Position numbers and translations under genes: made by a program
The notes under the pieces: generated by a model
Database searches by the model: none
Told to the model about the DNA's origin: nothing
The model's input: the letters and a program-made list of their open reading frames with translations, nothing else
Shown here: one piece after another, positions 39,255-45,663 of the stretch
Layout of the letters: each line of letters begins with the position of its first letter
How positions within the stretch are numbered: the stretch's first letter is position 1
Assembly (NCBI GenBank): GCA_963832055.1
Contig: CAWHST010000004.1
Span: 454,409-518,408 of the forward strand
Direction of reading: 5' to 3'
DNA: 64,000 nucleotides
Source: an uncultured Gemmatimonadales bacterium
GTDB taxonomy: Bacteria; Gemmatimonadota; Gemmatimonadetes; Gemmatimonadales; GWC2-71-9

Positions 39255-42200
39255 ATGCCGACCCGCCCGGCCAGTAATGGTCGCCGAACCAAACGCGGCC
39301 AACCGGCCGATCCTGCTGTCGATCCCGAAACCCTCGATCTCGCCGAGCTGCTGACGGTCCTCTCCGCCGTCCGCAAGGGAGACTTCTCCGTGCGGATGCG
39401 GGTCGCGCGCACCGGGCTCGCGGGGAAGGTGGCCGACACCCTCAACGAGATCGTCCAGCTCAACCAGGACATGGCCCACGAGCTCGACCGGGTGAGCATC
39501 GCGGTGGGCAAGGAAGGGCGCATCACCCAGCGGGCCCAGCTCAGCGGCGCCGGCGGGTCGTGGGCGGCCTCGCTCAACTCGGTGAACGGCCTGATCGGCG
39601 ACCTGGTGCAGCCGACCAGCGAAGTGGCGCGGGTGATCGGCGCGGTCGCCAAGGGCGACCTCTCCCAGACGATGGCGCTCGACATCGAGGGCCGGCCGCT
39701 CATGGGCGAGTTCCTCCGGATCGGGCGCACCGTGAACTCGATGGTGGACCAGCTGAGCTCGTTCGCCTCCGAAGTGACCCGGGTGGCCCGCGAGGTGGGC
39801 ACCGAGGGCAAGCTGGGCGGCCAGGCCAAGGTGAAGGGCGTGGCCGGGACGTGGAAGGACCTGACCGACAACGTGAACTCGATGGCCGGCAACCTGACGG
39901 CGCAGGTCCGCAACATCGCCGAGGTGACCACCGCGGTGGCCAGCGGCGACCTCTCCAAGAAGATCACGGTGGACGTGAAGGGCGAGATCCTGGAGCTCAA
40001 GAACACCATCAACACCATGGTGGACCAGCTCAATTCGTTCGCCTCGGAAGTGACCCGCGTGGCCCGCGAGGTGGGCACCGAAGGCAAGCTGGGCGGCCAG
40101 GCGCAGGTGCGCGGCGTGGGCGGCACCTGGAAGGACCTGACCGACAGCGTGAACTCGATGGCCGGCAACCTGACGGCGCAGGTCCGCAACATCGCCGAAG
40201 TGACGACCGCCGTGGCGAACGGCGACCTGTCGAAGAAGATCACGGTGGACGTGAAGGGCGAGATCCTGGAGCTCAAGAACACCATCAACACCATGGTGGA
40301 CCAGCTCAACTCCTTCGCCTCGGAAGTGACCCGCGTGGCCCGCGAAGTGGGCACCGAAGGGAAGCTGGGCGGTCAGGCGCAGGTGCGCGGGGTCGGCGGC
40401 ACCTGGAAGGACCTGACCGACAACGTGAACTCGATGGCCGGCAACCTGACGGCCCAGGTCCGCAACATCGCCAACGTGACCACGGCGGTCGCCAACGGCG
40501 ACCTGTCGAAGAAGATCACGGTGGACGTGCAGGGCGAGATCCTGGAGCTCAAGGACACCATCAACACGATGGTGGACCAGCTCAGCTCGTTCGCCTCGGA
40601 GGTGACGCGCGTGGCCCGCGAGGTCGGCACCGAAGGCAAGCTGGGCGGCCAGGCGCGGGTGACCGGCGTCGGCGGCACCTGGAAGGACCTGACCGACAAC
40701 GTCAACTCGATGGCCGGCAACCTGACGGCGCAGGTCCGCAACATCGCGGACGTGACGACGGCGGTCGCCAACGGCGACCTGTCGAAGAAGATCACGGTGG
40801 ACGTGAAGGGCGAGATCCTGGAGCTCAAGAACACCATCAACACCATGGTGGACCAGCTGAGCTCCTTCGCCTCGGAGGTGACGCGTGTCGCCCGCGAGGT
40901 GGGCACCGAGGGCAAGCTGGGCGGCCAGGCGCAGGTGACCGGCGTCGGCGGCACCTGGAAGGACCTGACCGACAACGTGAACTCGATGGCGGGCAACCTG
41001 ACCTCGCAGGTCCGCAACATCGCCGAGGTGACCACGGCGGTGGCCCAGGGCGAGCTCAACAAGAAGATCACGGTGGACGTGCAGGGCGAGATCCTGGAGC
41101 TCAAGAACACCATCAACACGATGGTGGACCAGCTCAGCTCGTTCGCCTCGGAAGTGACGCGCGTGGCCCGCGAGGTGGGCACCGAAGGGAAGCTGGGCGG
41201 CCAGGCGCAGGTGACGGGCGTCGGCGGCACCTGGAAGGACCTGACCGACAGCGTGAACTCGATGGCGGGCAACCTGACGGCCCAGGTCCGCAACATCGCC
41301 GACGTGACGACGGCGGTCGCCAACGGCGACCTGTCGAAGAAGATCACGGTGGACGTGAAGGGCGAGATCCTGGAGCTCAAGAACACCATCAACACCATGG
41401 TGGACCAGCTCAACTCCTTCGCCTCGGAGGTGACCCGCGTGGCCCGCGAGGTGGGCACCGAAGGCAAGCTGGGCGGCCAGGCGCAGGTGCGCGGCGTCGG
41501 CGGGACGTGGAAGGACCTGACCGACAACGTGAACTCGATGGCCGGCAACCTGACCTCCCAGGTGCGGAACATCGCCGAGGTGACGACGGCGGTGGCCCGG
41601 GGCGAGCTCAACAAGAAGATCACGGTGGACGTGAAGGGCGAGATCCTGGAGCTCAAGAACACCATCAACACCATGGTGGACCAGCTCAACTCCTTCGCCT
41701 CGGAGGTGACGCGCGTCGCCCGCGAGGTGGGCACCGAAGGCAAGCTGGGCGGCCAGGCGCAGGTGGCGGGGATCGGCGGCACCTGGAAGGACCTGACCGA
41801 CAACGTGAACTCGATGGCGGGCAACCTGACGGCCCAGGTCCGCAACATCGCGCAGGTGACGACGGCGGTGGCCAACGGCGACCTCTCCAAGAAGATCACG
41901 GTGGACGTGCGGGGCGAGATCCTGGAGCTCAAGAACACCATCAACACGATGGTGGACCAGCTCAACTCCTTCGCCTCGGAAGTGACCCGCGTGGCCCGCG
42001 AGGTGGGCACCGAAGGCAAGCTGGGCGGCCAGGCGTACGTGAAGGGCGTCGGCGGCACCTGGAAGGACCTGACCGACAACGTGAACTCGATGGCCAGCAA
42101 CCTGACGACCCAGGTCCGCAACATCGCGGACGTGACGACGGCGGTGGCCCGGGGCGAGCTCAACAAGAAGATCACGGTGGACGTGCAGGGCGAGATCCTG

Positions 42201-45200: not shown

Positions 45201-45663
45201 GACGGCGCTGTTCCTCCACCGCGTCACCGCCCGCCTCCCCGACGGCAAGCGCCGCATGCTGGAGCAGCTCCACCGCACCGACCCGACGCTCAGCGGGCGC
45301 AAGGTCCTGATCGTGGACGACGACGTCCGCAACATCTTCGCGCTCACCACCTTCCTCGAGCGCAGCGAGATGCAGGTGTCCTACGCGGAGAGCGGACAGG
45401 AGGGCATCGCGCGGCTGCAGGAGACTGGGGACATCGACATCGTCCTGATGGACGTGATGATGCCGGAGATGGACGGCTACGAGACCATGCGCGCCATCCG
45501 GGAGCACGCCCGGTTCCGGCAGCTCCCCATCATCGCCGTCACCGCCAAGGCCATGAAGGGCGACCGTGAGAAATGCATCGAGGCCGGCGCGTCGGACTAC
45601 ATCGCCAAGCCGGTGGACATGGACCAACTGCTGTCGCTGCTGAGAGTATGGCTGTACCGATGA
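39255..45663 (+). CDS. Giant poly-HAMP hybrid histidine kinase (~25 HAMP - GAF - coiled coil - HisKA - HATPase_c - 3x REC); single frameshift at ~42846
   Basis: Track ORF 39165..45569 is valid up to ...[13 protein letters not shown] 42859..45663 begins [23 protein letters not shown]. Removing one base at ~42846 joins them as ...[14 protein letters not shown]... Downstream are GAF ([10 protein letters not shown]...GEGLVGQC...), a Q/E/K-rich coiled coil, the H-box [16 protein letters not shown], the N-box [13 protein letters not shown]-boxes DTGIGIP / [10 protein letters not shown], and three receivers (ILLIAEDD..., LLVVEDDE..., VLIVDDDV...[10 protein letters not shown]). An alternative GTG start is at 39165. 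Confidence 0.9.
39378..42800 (+). repeat. In-frame tandem repeat array, period 276 nt (92 aa = di-HAMP unit), ~12.5 units
   Basis: The unit [92 protein letters not shown] starts at 39945, 40221, 40497, 40773, 41049, 41325, 41601, 41877, 42153 and 42429, exactly 276 nt apart. Divergent units lie at both ends (39378, 39669, 42705). Confidence 0.92.

What the first reader, a model, noticed from the sequence alone, without database searches (positions are those of the whole stretch)
39255..45663. Giant cytoplasmic hybrid kinase with ~25 concatenated HAMP domains in 92-aa units
From the ATG at 39255 the reconstructed protein is ~2135 aa. I saw no hydrophobic TM segment in the N-terminus. Its first ~1180 aa consist almost entirely of one 92-aa unit repeated ~12.5 times. 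Each unit reads as two back-to-back HAMP modules that share helices: AS1-like [14 protein letters not shown], connector, AS2-like [29 protein letters not shown], then [26 protein letters not shown]. The array feeds a GAF domain, a long Q/E/K coiled coil, HisKA/HATPase_c and three receivers. A 92-aa HAMP-pair repeat is the hallmark of fungal group III hybrid kinases (Nik1/Os-1), which carry about 5-6 pairs. Soluble poly-HAMP chains are best studied in Aer2, which has far fewer. An array this long and regular, fused to GAF plus a triple receiver, is an extreme architecture. How or whether a signal propagates through ~25 serial HAMPs is unexplained. This is the most unusual protein in the window.
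Basis: partly seen in the sequence, partly recalled or inferred. Interest (0 to 1): 0.8.

Follow-up and report, generated by a model that had tools for sequence, protein, structure and literature searches.

The report
Ordinary AskA-type poly-HAMP hybrid kinase
The giant repeat-rich kinase is real, but it belongs to a widespread and already described bacterial family, the AskA/AskB-type poly-HAMP hybrid histidine kinases, and its 25-domain array is average to short for that family.

Summary
Removing one extra base at 42846 gives a 2135-aa soluble protein from ATG 39255 to the stop at 45663. It has a basic N-terminal tail, 25 concatenated HAMP domains (13 canonical, 12 non-canonical, in 92-aa pairs), a GAF domain, a coiled coil, HisKA, HATPase_c and three receivers.

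The claim that this is an extreme architecture does not hold. It is the kinase-associated poly-HAMP family described by Coles et al. 2026, who found 4778 such kinases. M. xanthus AskA has 21 HAMPs and AskB has 31. The first 306 residues align co-linearly with the AskA 6-HAMP crystal construct 9TRK (E 7e-137, 75% identity), including the family's signature third HAMP. At least 8000 database proteins match. The 120 best have the same domains and 13-18 repeat units, against about 12 here.

Gemmatimonadales orthologues carry about 8-12 units, and three independent assemblies match the count here. The frameshift is unique to this window. Seven orthologues are in frame there, and the window holds at least three other split genes, so a sequencing error is most likely. 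An AskC-like REC-kinase lies directly downstream, as in Myxococcus askB-askC.

Verdict: a new member of a known kind, of low interest.

The parts
39255..45663 (+). Complete poly-HAMP hybrid histidine kinase gene. It encodes 2135 aa once the extra base at 42846 is removed. The stop codon TGA is at 45661-45663.
   Evidence: The start codon is conserved in orthologues.
39255..39329 (+). N-terminal tail of 25 aa, [25 protein letters not shown]. It has 5 Lys/Arg, all in the first 14 residues, and no recognisable domain.
   Evidence: The basic RxxKR patch is conserved in L004, L008 and L012.
39330..42824 (+). Poly-HAMP array of 25 HAMP domains: one first canonical HAMP followed by 12 pairs of non-canonical plus canonical HAMPs.
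   Evidence: Motif counts of 13 and 12 at 92-aa spacing. Pfam HAMP and HAMP_2, 12 stretches each. Co-linear match to AskA 9TRK.
39591..39758 (+). Third HAMP, carrying the family signature: a proline in the input helix (VQPTSE) and a 5-aa linker insertion ([11 protein letters not shown]).
   Evidence: The single 97-residue spacing. It aligns to the same feature of AskA in 9TRK. The feature is described as conserved in AskA-like arrays (PMC13446029).
39807..42290 (+). Nine near-identical 276-nt (92-aa) di-HAMP units. They are 89-95% identical in DNA and 88-98% in protein.
   Evidence: dN/dS among the units is 0.22. There is no positional orthology with the units of other genomes.
42845..42846 (+). 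One-base insertion (GCC/GCG AAG has become GCGC AAG) that shifts the frame at the HAMP-GAF linker.
   Evidence: It is absent from seven orthologues (alignment A1).
42874..43287 (+). GAF domain.
   Evidence: Pfam GAF_2 E 1e-22 and GAF E 2e-11. Coordinates.
43288..43605 (+). Q/E/K-rich segment of about 105 aa linking GAF to the DHp domain. It is read as a coiled coil by eye; no coiled-coil predictor was run.
   Evidence: Sequence read directly. No other Pfam domain is called there.
43606..43809 (+). HisKA (DHp) domain with the H-box SHELRTPLN. The phospho-acceptor is His1460, codon 43633-43635.
   Evidence: Pfam HisKA E 8e-19. Motif found.
43951..44319 (+). HATPase_c catalytic domain. The N box (NLLSNAFKF), G1 (DTGIGI) and G2 (GTGLGL) are intact.
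   Evidence: Pfam E 7e-29. Motifs found.
44497..45645 (+). Three receiver domains: approximately 44497-44835, 44863-45210 and 45301-45645. Each has the acidic pair and a phospho-acceptor Asp motif.
   Evidence: Pfam Response_reg, 3 stretches, E 3e-66. Motifs found. The borders of REC1 and REC2 are estimated from the motifs.
45720..46964 (+). Downstream REC-HisKA-HATPase_c hybrid kinase. The ORF is open from 45573, but the likely start is ATG 45720. It is the counterpart of M. xanthus AskC.
   Evidence: Pfam. Conserved immediately downstream in Gemmatimonadales orthologues at 61-80% identity. Its REC is 52-57% identical to the REC of the gene directly downstream of askB-like genes in Myxococcus loci.
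36724..39129 (-). Divergently transcribed hybrid kinase with the order REC, PAS, PAS, HisKA, HATPase_c, REC.
   Evidence: Pfam. Conserved upstream in L004, L008, L010 and L012.
45664..45808 (.). Long GC-rich inverted repeat. Its arms are tandem octamers, (CGGGCGGA)n and (GTCCGCCC)n. It sits between the kinase stop codon and the receiver domain of the next gene, and its loop holds ATG 45720.
   Evidence: RNA fold of -115.7 kcal/mol, z -6.5. A second copy of the same element lies at 24827-24931.

Best explanation
This is a Gemmatimonadales member of the AskA/AskB-type family of soluble poly-HAMP hybrid histidine kinases, the bacterial relatives of fungal group III hybrid kinases.

Shown:
- The protein has a short basic tail, then 25 tightly concatenated HAMP domains. 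The first is a canonical HAMP. It is followed by 12 pairs of non-canonical plus canonical HAMPs.
- After the array come a GAF domain, a Q/E/K-rich linker (read as a coiled coil by eye), an intact DHp/CA kinase core and three receivers with intact phospho-acceptor motifs.

Inferred from the AskA crystal structures and models (Coles et al. 2026):
- The protein is a parallel homodimer. Each output helix of one HAMP runs on as the input helix of the next, so the array forms one continuous supercoiled four-helix rod. I estimate its length at about 60 nm, from 25 domains of about 17 helical residues each.
- Canonical and non-canonical HAMPs prefer opposite axial helix rotations (x-da against da-x). 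Each pair therefore restores the sense of rotation. A conformational bias can then pass down the rod, through the GAF domain and the Q/E/K-rich linker, to set the autophosphorylation of His1460.
- The phosphoryl group then goes to the protein's own receivers. It probably also goes to, or is modulated by, the AskC-like REC-kinase encoded directly downstream.
- The input signal is unknown. Candidates are the GAF domain, the rod itself (as argued for osmotic and fungicide sensing in fungal relatives), or the basic N-terminal tail.

The single-base frameshift at 42846 is most likely a sequencing or consensus error and not a real inactivation. The number of repeat units varies between relatives through gain and loss of the near-identical core units.
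For: Architecture: Pfam domain calls, motif periodicity and intact catalytic motifs.

Family identity:
- Residues 4-306 align without rearrangement to the AskA 6-HAMP crystal construct 9TRK (E 7e-137, 75% identity) and to 9TRJ (E 1e-82). The alignment includes the third-HAMP proline and insertion.
- The repeat units match 9TRK at E 5e-91, against 3.6e-4 for Aer2.
- The family definition, the member count of 4778 kinases, AskA with 21 HAMPs and AskB with 31 come from PMC13446029 and PMC7643160.

Abundance: at least 8000 hits at E<1e-50. The top 120 are 2169-2932 aa, 66-74% identical over 98-100% of the query, and have the same domains. They come from Acidobacteriota, Cyanobacteria, Planctomycetota, Verrucomicrobiota and others. 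They carry 13-18 units against 11.9 here.

Repeat number:
- Genome loci give 4.9-15.4 units where the gene is not cut by a contig end.
- L004, L010 and L012 have 11.9 units, as here. L008 has 8.9 and L005 has 7.9.
- The terminal units are positionally orthologous between genomes. The core units are not.
- The units are under purifying selection, with dN/dS 0.22.

Frameshift as an error:
- The insertion is unique to the window.
- No other lesion is present in either half.
- At least three other genes in the same 64 kb are split in the same way: a GT4 glycosyltransferase, a DAO/GlpD-type oxidoreductase and a Polysacc_synt_3 protein.

Partner kinase:
- A REC-kinase lies directly downstream in all close orthologues.
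- It has an AskC-like REC.
- askC lies immediately downstream of askB, and the AskC REC binds AskA Rec3 in a two-hybrid assay (PMC7643160).
Against: - As read, the sequence is frameshifted. No reads are available, so a genuine pseudogene cannot be excluded, and the inserted base is not in a homopolymer.
- Nothing here tests dimerisation, kinase activity, phosphotransfer or the signal.
- The rotation-relay model rests on structures of the first six HAMPs of another protein and on AlphaFold models. Its authors consider simultaneous switching of a whole array unlikely and say the role of the arrays remains unclear.
- My own monomer model of three units was of low confidence (pLDDT 38.5). It adds only secondary-structure periodicity.
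- Pfam profiles directly call only the canonical HAMP of each pair. The non-canonical ones are inferred from homology to the AskA structure.
- The AskC-like assignment rests on synteny and 52-57% REC identity only. The Myxococcus proteins have an extra segment of about 230 aa between REC and kinase.
Confidence: 0.85

Rival explanations
1. The frameshift is genuine and the gene is a recent pseudogene. Alternatively it is a naturally split locus that yields a free 25-HAMP rod with a nonsense tail, plus a GAF-kinase-REC3 protein started at ATG 42859.
For: - The base is present in the sequence as given and is not in a homopolymer.
- An in-frame ATG at 42859 follows 13 nt after the insertion.
- Three other assemblies of homologous genes are also split in two frames (L010, L026, L067).
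Against: - Seven orthologues are in frame at this site.
- Both halves are otherwise intact, with no stops and with intact catalytic motifs.
- At least three other genes in the window carry comparable frame breaks. That points to consensus errors, not to four independent pseudogenes in 64 kb.
- No slippery sequence is present for programmed frameshifting (sequence read directly).
Confidence: 0.1
2. The array length is an assembly artefact, produced by expansion or collapse of a tandem repeat, so the true protein has a different number of HAMPs.
For: - The core units are 89-95% identical, with exact in-register matches of up to 110 nt.
- Many short-read contigs of orthologues end inside the array (L002, L003, L013, L014 and others). 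This shows the region is hard to assemble.
Against: - Every unit is distinguishable from every other, with 5-11% DNA difference.
- The array is flanked by unique sequence on both sides within one contig.
- Three independent assemblies of different species-level genomes (L004, L010, L012) carry the same 11.9 units.
- The first, penultimate and last units show clean positional orthology between genomes.
Confidence: 0.07
3. Mechanistic rival. The poly-HAMP rod is not a relay that carries an N-terminal input. It is either the sensor itself (responding to osmolarity, small molecules or chemical modification) or a tunable modulator or scaffold for partner proteins or DNA. In this view the GAF domain provides the main input to the kinase.
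For: - There is no input domain upstream of the array, only a 25-aa basic tail.
- A GAF domain lies between the array and the kinase.
- The literature gives several supports: fungal group III kinases sense osmotic stress and fungicides through the HAMP region; AskB and AskA bind DNA in vitro; AskA, AskB and AskC bind each other and MrpC/FruA; and the authors of the structure paper themselves raise the modulator and ligand-recognition options.
- Unit number varies between close relatives, as expected for a tunable element.
Against: - The tight helix-to-helix continuity and the strict alternation of two HAMP types with opposite rotational preference are what a relay needs.
- The units are under purifying selection.
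Confidence: 0.35

Closest known systems
Myxococcus xanthus AskA (MXAN_0712, 21 HAMPs; PDB 9TRJ and 9TRK) and AskB (MXAN_6735, 31 HAMPs), the kinase-associated poly-HAMP hybrid histidine kinases
   Same: - Soluble, with no input domain.
- A first canonical HAMP followed by repeated pairs of non-canonical and canonical HAMPs in 92-aa units.
- A third HAMP with a proline and a linker insertion.
- A conserved Trp and conserved Gly residues at the domain junctions.
- Then GAF, DHp/CA and several receivers.
- An AskC-like REC-kinase directly downstream, as for askB-askC.
- The N-terminal 306 aa are 75% identical to AskA.
   Different: - 25 HAMPs, between the 21 of AskA and the 31 of AskB.
- The host is a Gemmatimonadales bacterium, which is not known to form fruiting bodies, so the developmental and ambruticin role cannot be transferred.
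- The C-terminal half is only about 54% identical to the Myxococcus proteins.
- The downstream REC-kinase lacks the roughly 230-aa middle segment of the Myxococcus counterpart.
- The gene as sequenced carries a frameshift.
Fungal group III hybrid histidine kinases (Nik1/Os-1, Bos1, TcsC)
   Same: - Cytoplasmic, with no transmembrane segment.
- An N-terminal array of paired HAMP domains feeding a HisKA/HATPase_c core and a receiver.
- Regarded as sharing an origin with the bacterial kinase arrays (PMC13446029; PMC7643160).
   Different: - Fungal proteins have far fewer HAMPs. TcsC has six.
- From my own knowledge, not tested here: they have no GAF domain between array and kinase, a single receiver, and feed the HOG MAP-kinase pathway through Ypd1/Ssk1.
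- The group is described as fungal-specific.
Pseudomonas aeruginosa Aer2 (multi-HAMP soluble chemoreceptor; PDB 3LNR and 3VOL)
   Same: - Soluble.
- Concatenated HAMPs with alternating conformations.
- Tight packing between HAMP2 and HAMP3 through Gly-containing caps.
- A weak but significant sequence match (3VOL, E 3.6e-4).
   Different: - Aer2 has five diverse HAMPs interrupted by a haem-PAS domain, and it outputs through a methyl-accepting domain to CheA.
- It is classed as 'multi-HAMP', not poly-HAMP.
- Its non-canonical HAMP groups with the chemoreceptor-type arrays, which are thought to have arisen independently of the kinase-type arrays.

Membership tests
Kinase-associated poly-HAMP hybrid histidine kinases (AskA/AskB type; Coles et al. 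2026) | [quoted passage not shown] | tested here: met
   13 canonical and 12 non-canonical motifs at a strict 92-aa period. Units are 88-98% identical in protein. Pfam HAMP is called in 12 stretches.
Kinase-associated poly-HAMP hybrid histidine kinases (AskA/AskB type; Coles et al. 2026) | HAMP sequences of the kinase type (groups C and D) and not the chemoreceptor type (groups A and B), with a distinct first canonical HAMP (D1) | tested here: met
   Co-linear alignment of residues 4-306 with AskA HAMP1-6 in 9TRK, E 7e-137 and 75% identity. The Aer2 match is far weaker, at E 3.6e-4. The authors' own group profiles were not available, so assignment is by homology to AskA.
Kinase-associated poly-HAMP hybrid histidine kinases (AskA/AskB type; Coles et al. 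2026) | Third HAMP with a proline in the input helix and an insertion in the connector | tested here: met
   VQPTSE and the 5-aa longer [11 protein letters not shown] connector. This is the only 97-residue spacing. It aligns to the AskA equivalents. The feature is described.
Kinase-associated poly-HAMP hybrid histidine kinases (AskA/AskB type; Coles et al. 2026) | Conserved Trp at the start of the output helix of each non-canonical HAMP, and Gly residues at the HAMP-HAMP junctions | tested here: met
   G-x-W is present in 12 of 12 non-canonical HAMPs. The Gly and Trp columns are invariant in alignment A2.
Kinase-associated poly-HAMP hybrid histidine kinases (AskA/AskB type; Coles et al. 2026) | Soluble, with no dedicated input domain upstream of the array | tested here: met
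   Hydropathy maximum of 1.01 in the first 200 aa. Only a 25-aa tail precedes HAMP1.
Kinase-associated poly-HAMP hybrid histidine kinases (AskA/AskB type; Coles et al. 2026) | Array followed by GAF, DHp and CA domains and one or more receivers | tested here: met
   Pfam GAF_2, HisKA, HATPase_c and Response_reg x3, all above the curated cut-offs.
Kinase-associated poly-HAMP hybrid histidine kinases (AskA/AskB type; Coles et al. 2026) | Parallel homodimer that forms a continuous four-helix rod with a zig-zag of rotational states | tested here: inconclusive
   The monomer AlphaFold2 model had mean pLDDT 38.5. It showed only six 30-34-residue helices separated by connectors of about 11-14 residues. 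No multimer prediction was available.
Kinase-associated poly-HAMP hybrid histidine kinases (AskA/AskB type; Coles et al. 2026) | Functional histidine kinase and phosphorelay | not testable with these tools
   Only the motifs could be checked. The H box, N, G1 and G2 boxes and the receiver Asp motifs are intact. The gene as sequenced is frameshifted.
Fungal group III hybrid histidine kinases (Nik1/Os-1) | Fungal protein with paired HAMP repeats directly followed by HisKA, HATPase_c and one receiver | tested here: not met
   The locus is bacterial: the closest loci are Gemmatimonadales, at 83-93% identity. A GAF domain and three receivers are present. It is a homologue, not a member.
Aer2-type multi-HAMP chemoreceptors | HAMPs combined with a haem-PAS domain and a methyl-accepting signalling domain | tested here: not met
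   No PAS or MCP signal domain appears in the Pfam scans. The NCBIfam Aer2 model scores 325 bits against a cut-off of 1200.

The most novel reading that the evidence does not exclude
The one-base insertion at 42846 is genuine. This population would then express a free-standing 25-HAMP rod uncoupled from its kinase, perhaps alongside a GAF-kinase-REC3 protein started at ATG 42859. That would be a natural separation of a poly-HAMP array from its output and could reveal what the array does on its own. A milder version also remains open: the conserved trio of upstream REC-PAS hybrid kinase, poly-HAMP kinase and AskC-like REC-kinase is an Ask-type signalling complex in a non-developmental phylum. 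That would point to a general role, for example in stress response, and not a role specific to Myxococcus.
Probability: 0.06. Interest if true: 0.4.

Novelty: new member of a known kind. Interest (0 to 1): 0.15.

Why it matters
It matters little beyond correct annotation. The gene should be annotated as one AskA/AskB-like poly-HAMP hybrid histidine kinase with a probable sequencing frameshift. It should not be annotated as two genes or as a novel architecture.

Two modest points have some value:
- Repeat number differs among close Gemmatimonadales relatives (about 8-12 pairs). Only the core units turn over, while the terminal units stay orthologous. This fits the published idea that array length is an evolutionarily tunable property.
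- The AskC-like kinase directly downstream is conserved from Myxococcus to Gemmatimonadales and other phyla. This suggests that the poly-HAMP kinase and this REC-kinase form an ancient functional pair. That could guide experiments in more tractable hosts.

The general question of how signals traverse dozens of HAMPs remains open. This locus does not make it more testable than AskA or AskB already do.

Tried and rejected
- Structure prediction. I ran AlphaFold2 on three units (276 aa) with an alignment of nine blocks from the window itself. Mean pLDDT was 38.5 and pTM 0.32. This is too poor for a fold search, so none was run. The model was a monomer of an obligate dimer, and the alignment was shallow. 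The sequence match to the solved AskA structures made the fold search unnecessary.
- Source look-ups. Exact-sequence look-ups of the 934-aa C-terminal ORF and of the long frame-A ORF found nothing on record. The source genome and its reads could not be identified.
- NCBIfam. No model reached its cut-off for either half.
- Programmed frameshifting. I considered and rejected it. There is no slippery heptamer or known +1 motif around ctggcgcaagttc, and all orthologues are simply in frame.
- The 2134-aa ORF listed by the ORF tool (39165-45569). I rejected it as the gene, because its last 900 or so residues are Arg/Pro/Gly-rich out-of-frame translation with no domains. Long antisense and off-frame ORFs across the region are by-products of 68% G+C.
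- Frame-plot and GC3 scan for frameshifts across the window. The output was too noisy to use alone because of antisense GC3 symmetry. Split genes were instead confirmed by Pfam profile continuity.
- Literature search for HAMP kinases in Gemmatimonadetes. It found nothing relevant.

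
Full report
**1. What is in the sequence**

The ORF tool lists a 2134-aa ORF (39165-45569) in one frame and a 934-aa ORF (42859-45663) in another.

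Translation shows the following:
- The first frame encodes a highly regular repeat protein up to ...[12 protein letters not shown]. After that it reads as Arg/Pro/Gly-rich nonsense.
- The second frame encodes a clean GAF, coiled-coil, kinase and receiver protein.
- At 42840-42852 the DNA reads ctggcgCaagttc.
- Removing one base joins the frames into a 2135-aa protein with no internal stop and the junction ...[15 protein letters not shown]....

An alignment with seven Gemmatimonadales orthologues shows that each has exactly one base fewer here (CTGGC-CAAGTTC) and is in frame. ATG 39255 aligns with the MPT/MPN start of the orthologues.

**2. The repeat**

- Tandem Repeats Finder reports a 276-nt period with 11.0 copies, 88% matches and score 4357.
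- Printed in rows of 92 residues, the protein stays in register from the N-terminus to residue about 1196.
- The canonical-HAMP motif (xGD[LF]) occurs 13 times and the G-x-W motif of the second HAMP type occurs 12 times. Both recur every 92 residues, with a single 97-residue spacing early in the array.
- That gives 25 HAMPs: one leading canonical HAMP plus 12 pairs.
- Pfam calls HAMP (PF00672) in 12 stretches at E 8e-121, and HAMP_2 in 12 stretches at E 2e-105.
- These profiles cover the canonical member of each pair. The non-canonical members are established by homology to a crystal structure (section 4).
- There is no hydrophobic segment. The Kyte-Doolittle 19-residue maximum is 1.01 in the first 200 aa.

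**3. The rest of the protein**

- Pfam finds GAF_2, HisKA, HATPase_c and three Response_reg domains, all well above the curated cut-offs.
- The H box (SHELRTPLN, His1460), the N, G1 and G2 boxes and the acidic and phospho-acceptor motifs of all three receivers are intact.

**4. What it is**

A literature search for 'poly-HAMP' led to two papers.

Coles et al., Protein Sci 2026 (PMC13446029):
- The paper defines two families of long HAMP arrays.
- The kinase-associated family consists of alternating non-canonical (C) and canonical (D) HAMPs, starting with a special D1 HAMP. The array is followed by GAF, DHp/CA and one or more receivers.
- The authors found 4778 such kinases in NR90.
- M. xanthus AskA has 21 HAMPs and AskB has 31.
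- They solved the first four and the first six HAMPs of AskA (PDB 9TRJ and 9TRK).

Marcos-Torres et al., Nat Commun 2020 (PMC7643160):
- The paper describes AskA, AskB and AskC in Myxococcus development and ambruticin sensing.

Direct comparison with this protein:
- Residues 4-306 align co-linearly with 9TRK at E 7e-137 and 75% identity.
- The alignment includes the family's signature third HAMP, with a proline in the input helix and a five-residue connector insertion. This insertion explains the single 97-residue spacing.
- The repeat units match 9TRK at E 5e-91. Aer2 (3VOL) matches only at E 3.6e-4.
- The junction Trp and Gly residues stressed in the structure paper are invariant here.
- Every sequence-level defining feature of the family that I could test is met.

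**5. How unusual it is**

It is not unusual.
- The best 120 hits are 2169-2932 aa, 66-74% identical over 98-100% of the query, and have the same Pfam domains.
- They come from Bryobacteraceae, Solibacter usitatus, Thermoanaerobaculia, Nostoc, Coleofasciculus, Frigoriglobus, Verrucomicrobiales and others.
- I counted units with an HMM built from the window's own repeat. These 120 carry 13-18 units, median 15. The window protein has 11.9 and ranks last.
- The ranking favours long arrays, so the comparison is biased. It still shows that 25 HAMPs is far from extreme.

**6. Organism, orthologues and repeat number**

- A genome scan with the C-terminal half gave Gemmatimonadales metagenome-assembled genomes as the closest loci, at 83-93% identity.
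- Among loci where the gene is not cut by a contig end, unit counts range from 4.9 to 15.4.
- The Gemmatimonadales-like loci L004, L010 and L012 have 11.9 units, as here. L008 has 8.9 and L005 has 7.9.
- Many short-read contigs end inside the array.
- Unit-by-unit DNA comparison shows clean positional orthology for the first, penultimate and last units (82-92% on the diagonal).
- The core units are about 86-92% alike in every combination between genomes, and 89-95% alike within the window.
- The units are under purifying selection, with dN/dS 0.22.
- This pattern indicates turnover of core units by intragenic amplification and loss, as the literature proposes.
- It also argues against an assembly artefact, because three independent assemblies agree on the number and every unit is distinguishable.

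**7. The frameshift**

- Apart from the single base, neither half shows any decay.
- The same 64-kb window contains at least three further genes whose Pfam profiles continue across a frame change:
  - a GT4 glycosyltransferase (937-1632 and 1373-2131);
  - a DAO/GlpD-type oxidoreductase (2107-3096 and 2940-3650);
  - a Polysacc_synt_3 protein, with profile positions 1-173 in 47608-49701 and 174-292 in 47355-48227.
- Four broken genes in 64 kb of an otherwise compact genome points to an indel-prone consensus, not to pseudogenes.
- I put about 0.9 on sequencing error. Only reads can settle it.

**8. Surroundings**

- Upstream and divergent lies a hybrid kinase with the order REC, PAS, PAS, HisKA, HATPase_c, REC (36724-39129, minus strand).
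- Directly downstream lies a REC-HisKA-HATPase_c protein. Its ORF is open from 45573, but the likely start is ATG 45720.
- Both neighbours are conserved in the Gemmatimonadales orthologues.
- More distant homologues of the downstream gene sit in the same position in Steroidobacteraceae, Eisenbacteria and Acidobacteriota loci.
- In Myxococcus loci with askB-like genes, the gene directly downstream has a receiver 52-57% identical to this one. That is clearly above the 36-43% identity to other receivers.
- askC lies immediately downstream of askB, and the AskC receiver binds AskA Rec3. I therefore infer that the downstream gene is the AskC-like partner.

**9. Mechanism**

Shown here: the domain order and the intact catalytic motifs.

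Inferred from the AskA structures:
- A parallel dimer forms a continuous four-helix rod. I estimate its length at about 60 nm.
- Canonical and non-canonical HAMPs prefer opposite helix rotations, so each pair resets the rotational sense.
- A conformational bias can therefore travel, or an equilibrium can shift, along the rod into the GAF domain, the Q/E/K-rich linker and the DHp domain.

The input is unknown. The rod itself, the GAF domain or the basic tail are all candidates. The authors of the structure paper state that the role of the arrays remains unclear.

**10. Verdict**

This is a new, uncharacterised member of a well-populated, recently structurally characterised family. The frameshift is probably an error. 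Interest is low.

Noticed in passing
window 45664-45808 and 24827-24931; L004 12808-12939; L008 12783-12863; L007 5475-5578: A long GC-rich hairpin sits directly after the kinase stop codon. Its arms are tandem octamers, (GGGCGGAC)n facing their reverse complement. The RNA fold is -115.7 kcal/mol, z -6.5. Its loop contains the likely start codon of the next gene, and its 3' arm encodes SARPSVRPSAP. A second copy of the same element lies at the ruvX-yceG junction (24827-24931), so it looks like a dispersed REP-like palindromic element. Orthologous loci have a hairpin in the same place, but it is built from different short repeats (GCGGTCGG..., GGGGAAGC).
   Followed up: partly
window 937-2131 (-), 2107-3650 (-), 47355-49701 (-): Three further genes appear to be split by frame changes. 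They are a GT4 glycosyltransferase (Glyco_transf_4 and Glycos_transf_1 in different frames), a DAO/GlpD-type FAD oxidoreductase, and a Polysacc_synt_3 protein whose profile breaks exactly at position 173/174. The last one also carries a Glyco_transf_25 domain at its N-terminus. This suggests an indel-prone consensus.
   Followed up: partly
window 8474-11247 (+), 34088-34999 (-), 36724-39129 (-), 45573-46964 (+): The window is dense in two-component genes: an NtrC-type sigma-54 activator followed by a histidine kinase, a REC-HD response regulator, a REC-PAS-PAS hybrid kinase and the AskC-like REC-kinase.
   Followed up: partly
window 62001-64000: G+C drops to 0.59 in the last 2 kb, against 0.66-0.73 elsewhere in the window. 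This may be an island edge, an RNA gene or foreign DNA.
   Followed up: no
L012 (JBLMWC010000106.1): This contig is labelled as a Bacillota metagenome-assembled genome. It nevertheless carries a Gemmatimonadales-like copy of the whole locus: 74% identity, the same 11.9 units and the same upstream and downstream kinases. The likely cause is mis-binning.
   Followed up: no
L010 5757-12873; L026; L067: Three other public assemblies of homologous poly-HAMP kinases are also split into two frames, at positions different from the window's. Frame errors in this long repetitive gene seem to be common.
   Followed up: no
window 39255-39329 and the orthologues: The 25-aa tail ahead of the first HAMP keeps a basic RxxKR patch in all four Gemmatimonadales-like sequences compared. 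A basic N-terminal extension of the multi-HAMP receptor FrzCD binds DNA, and AskB binds DNA in vitro.
   Followed up: no
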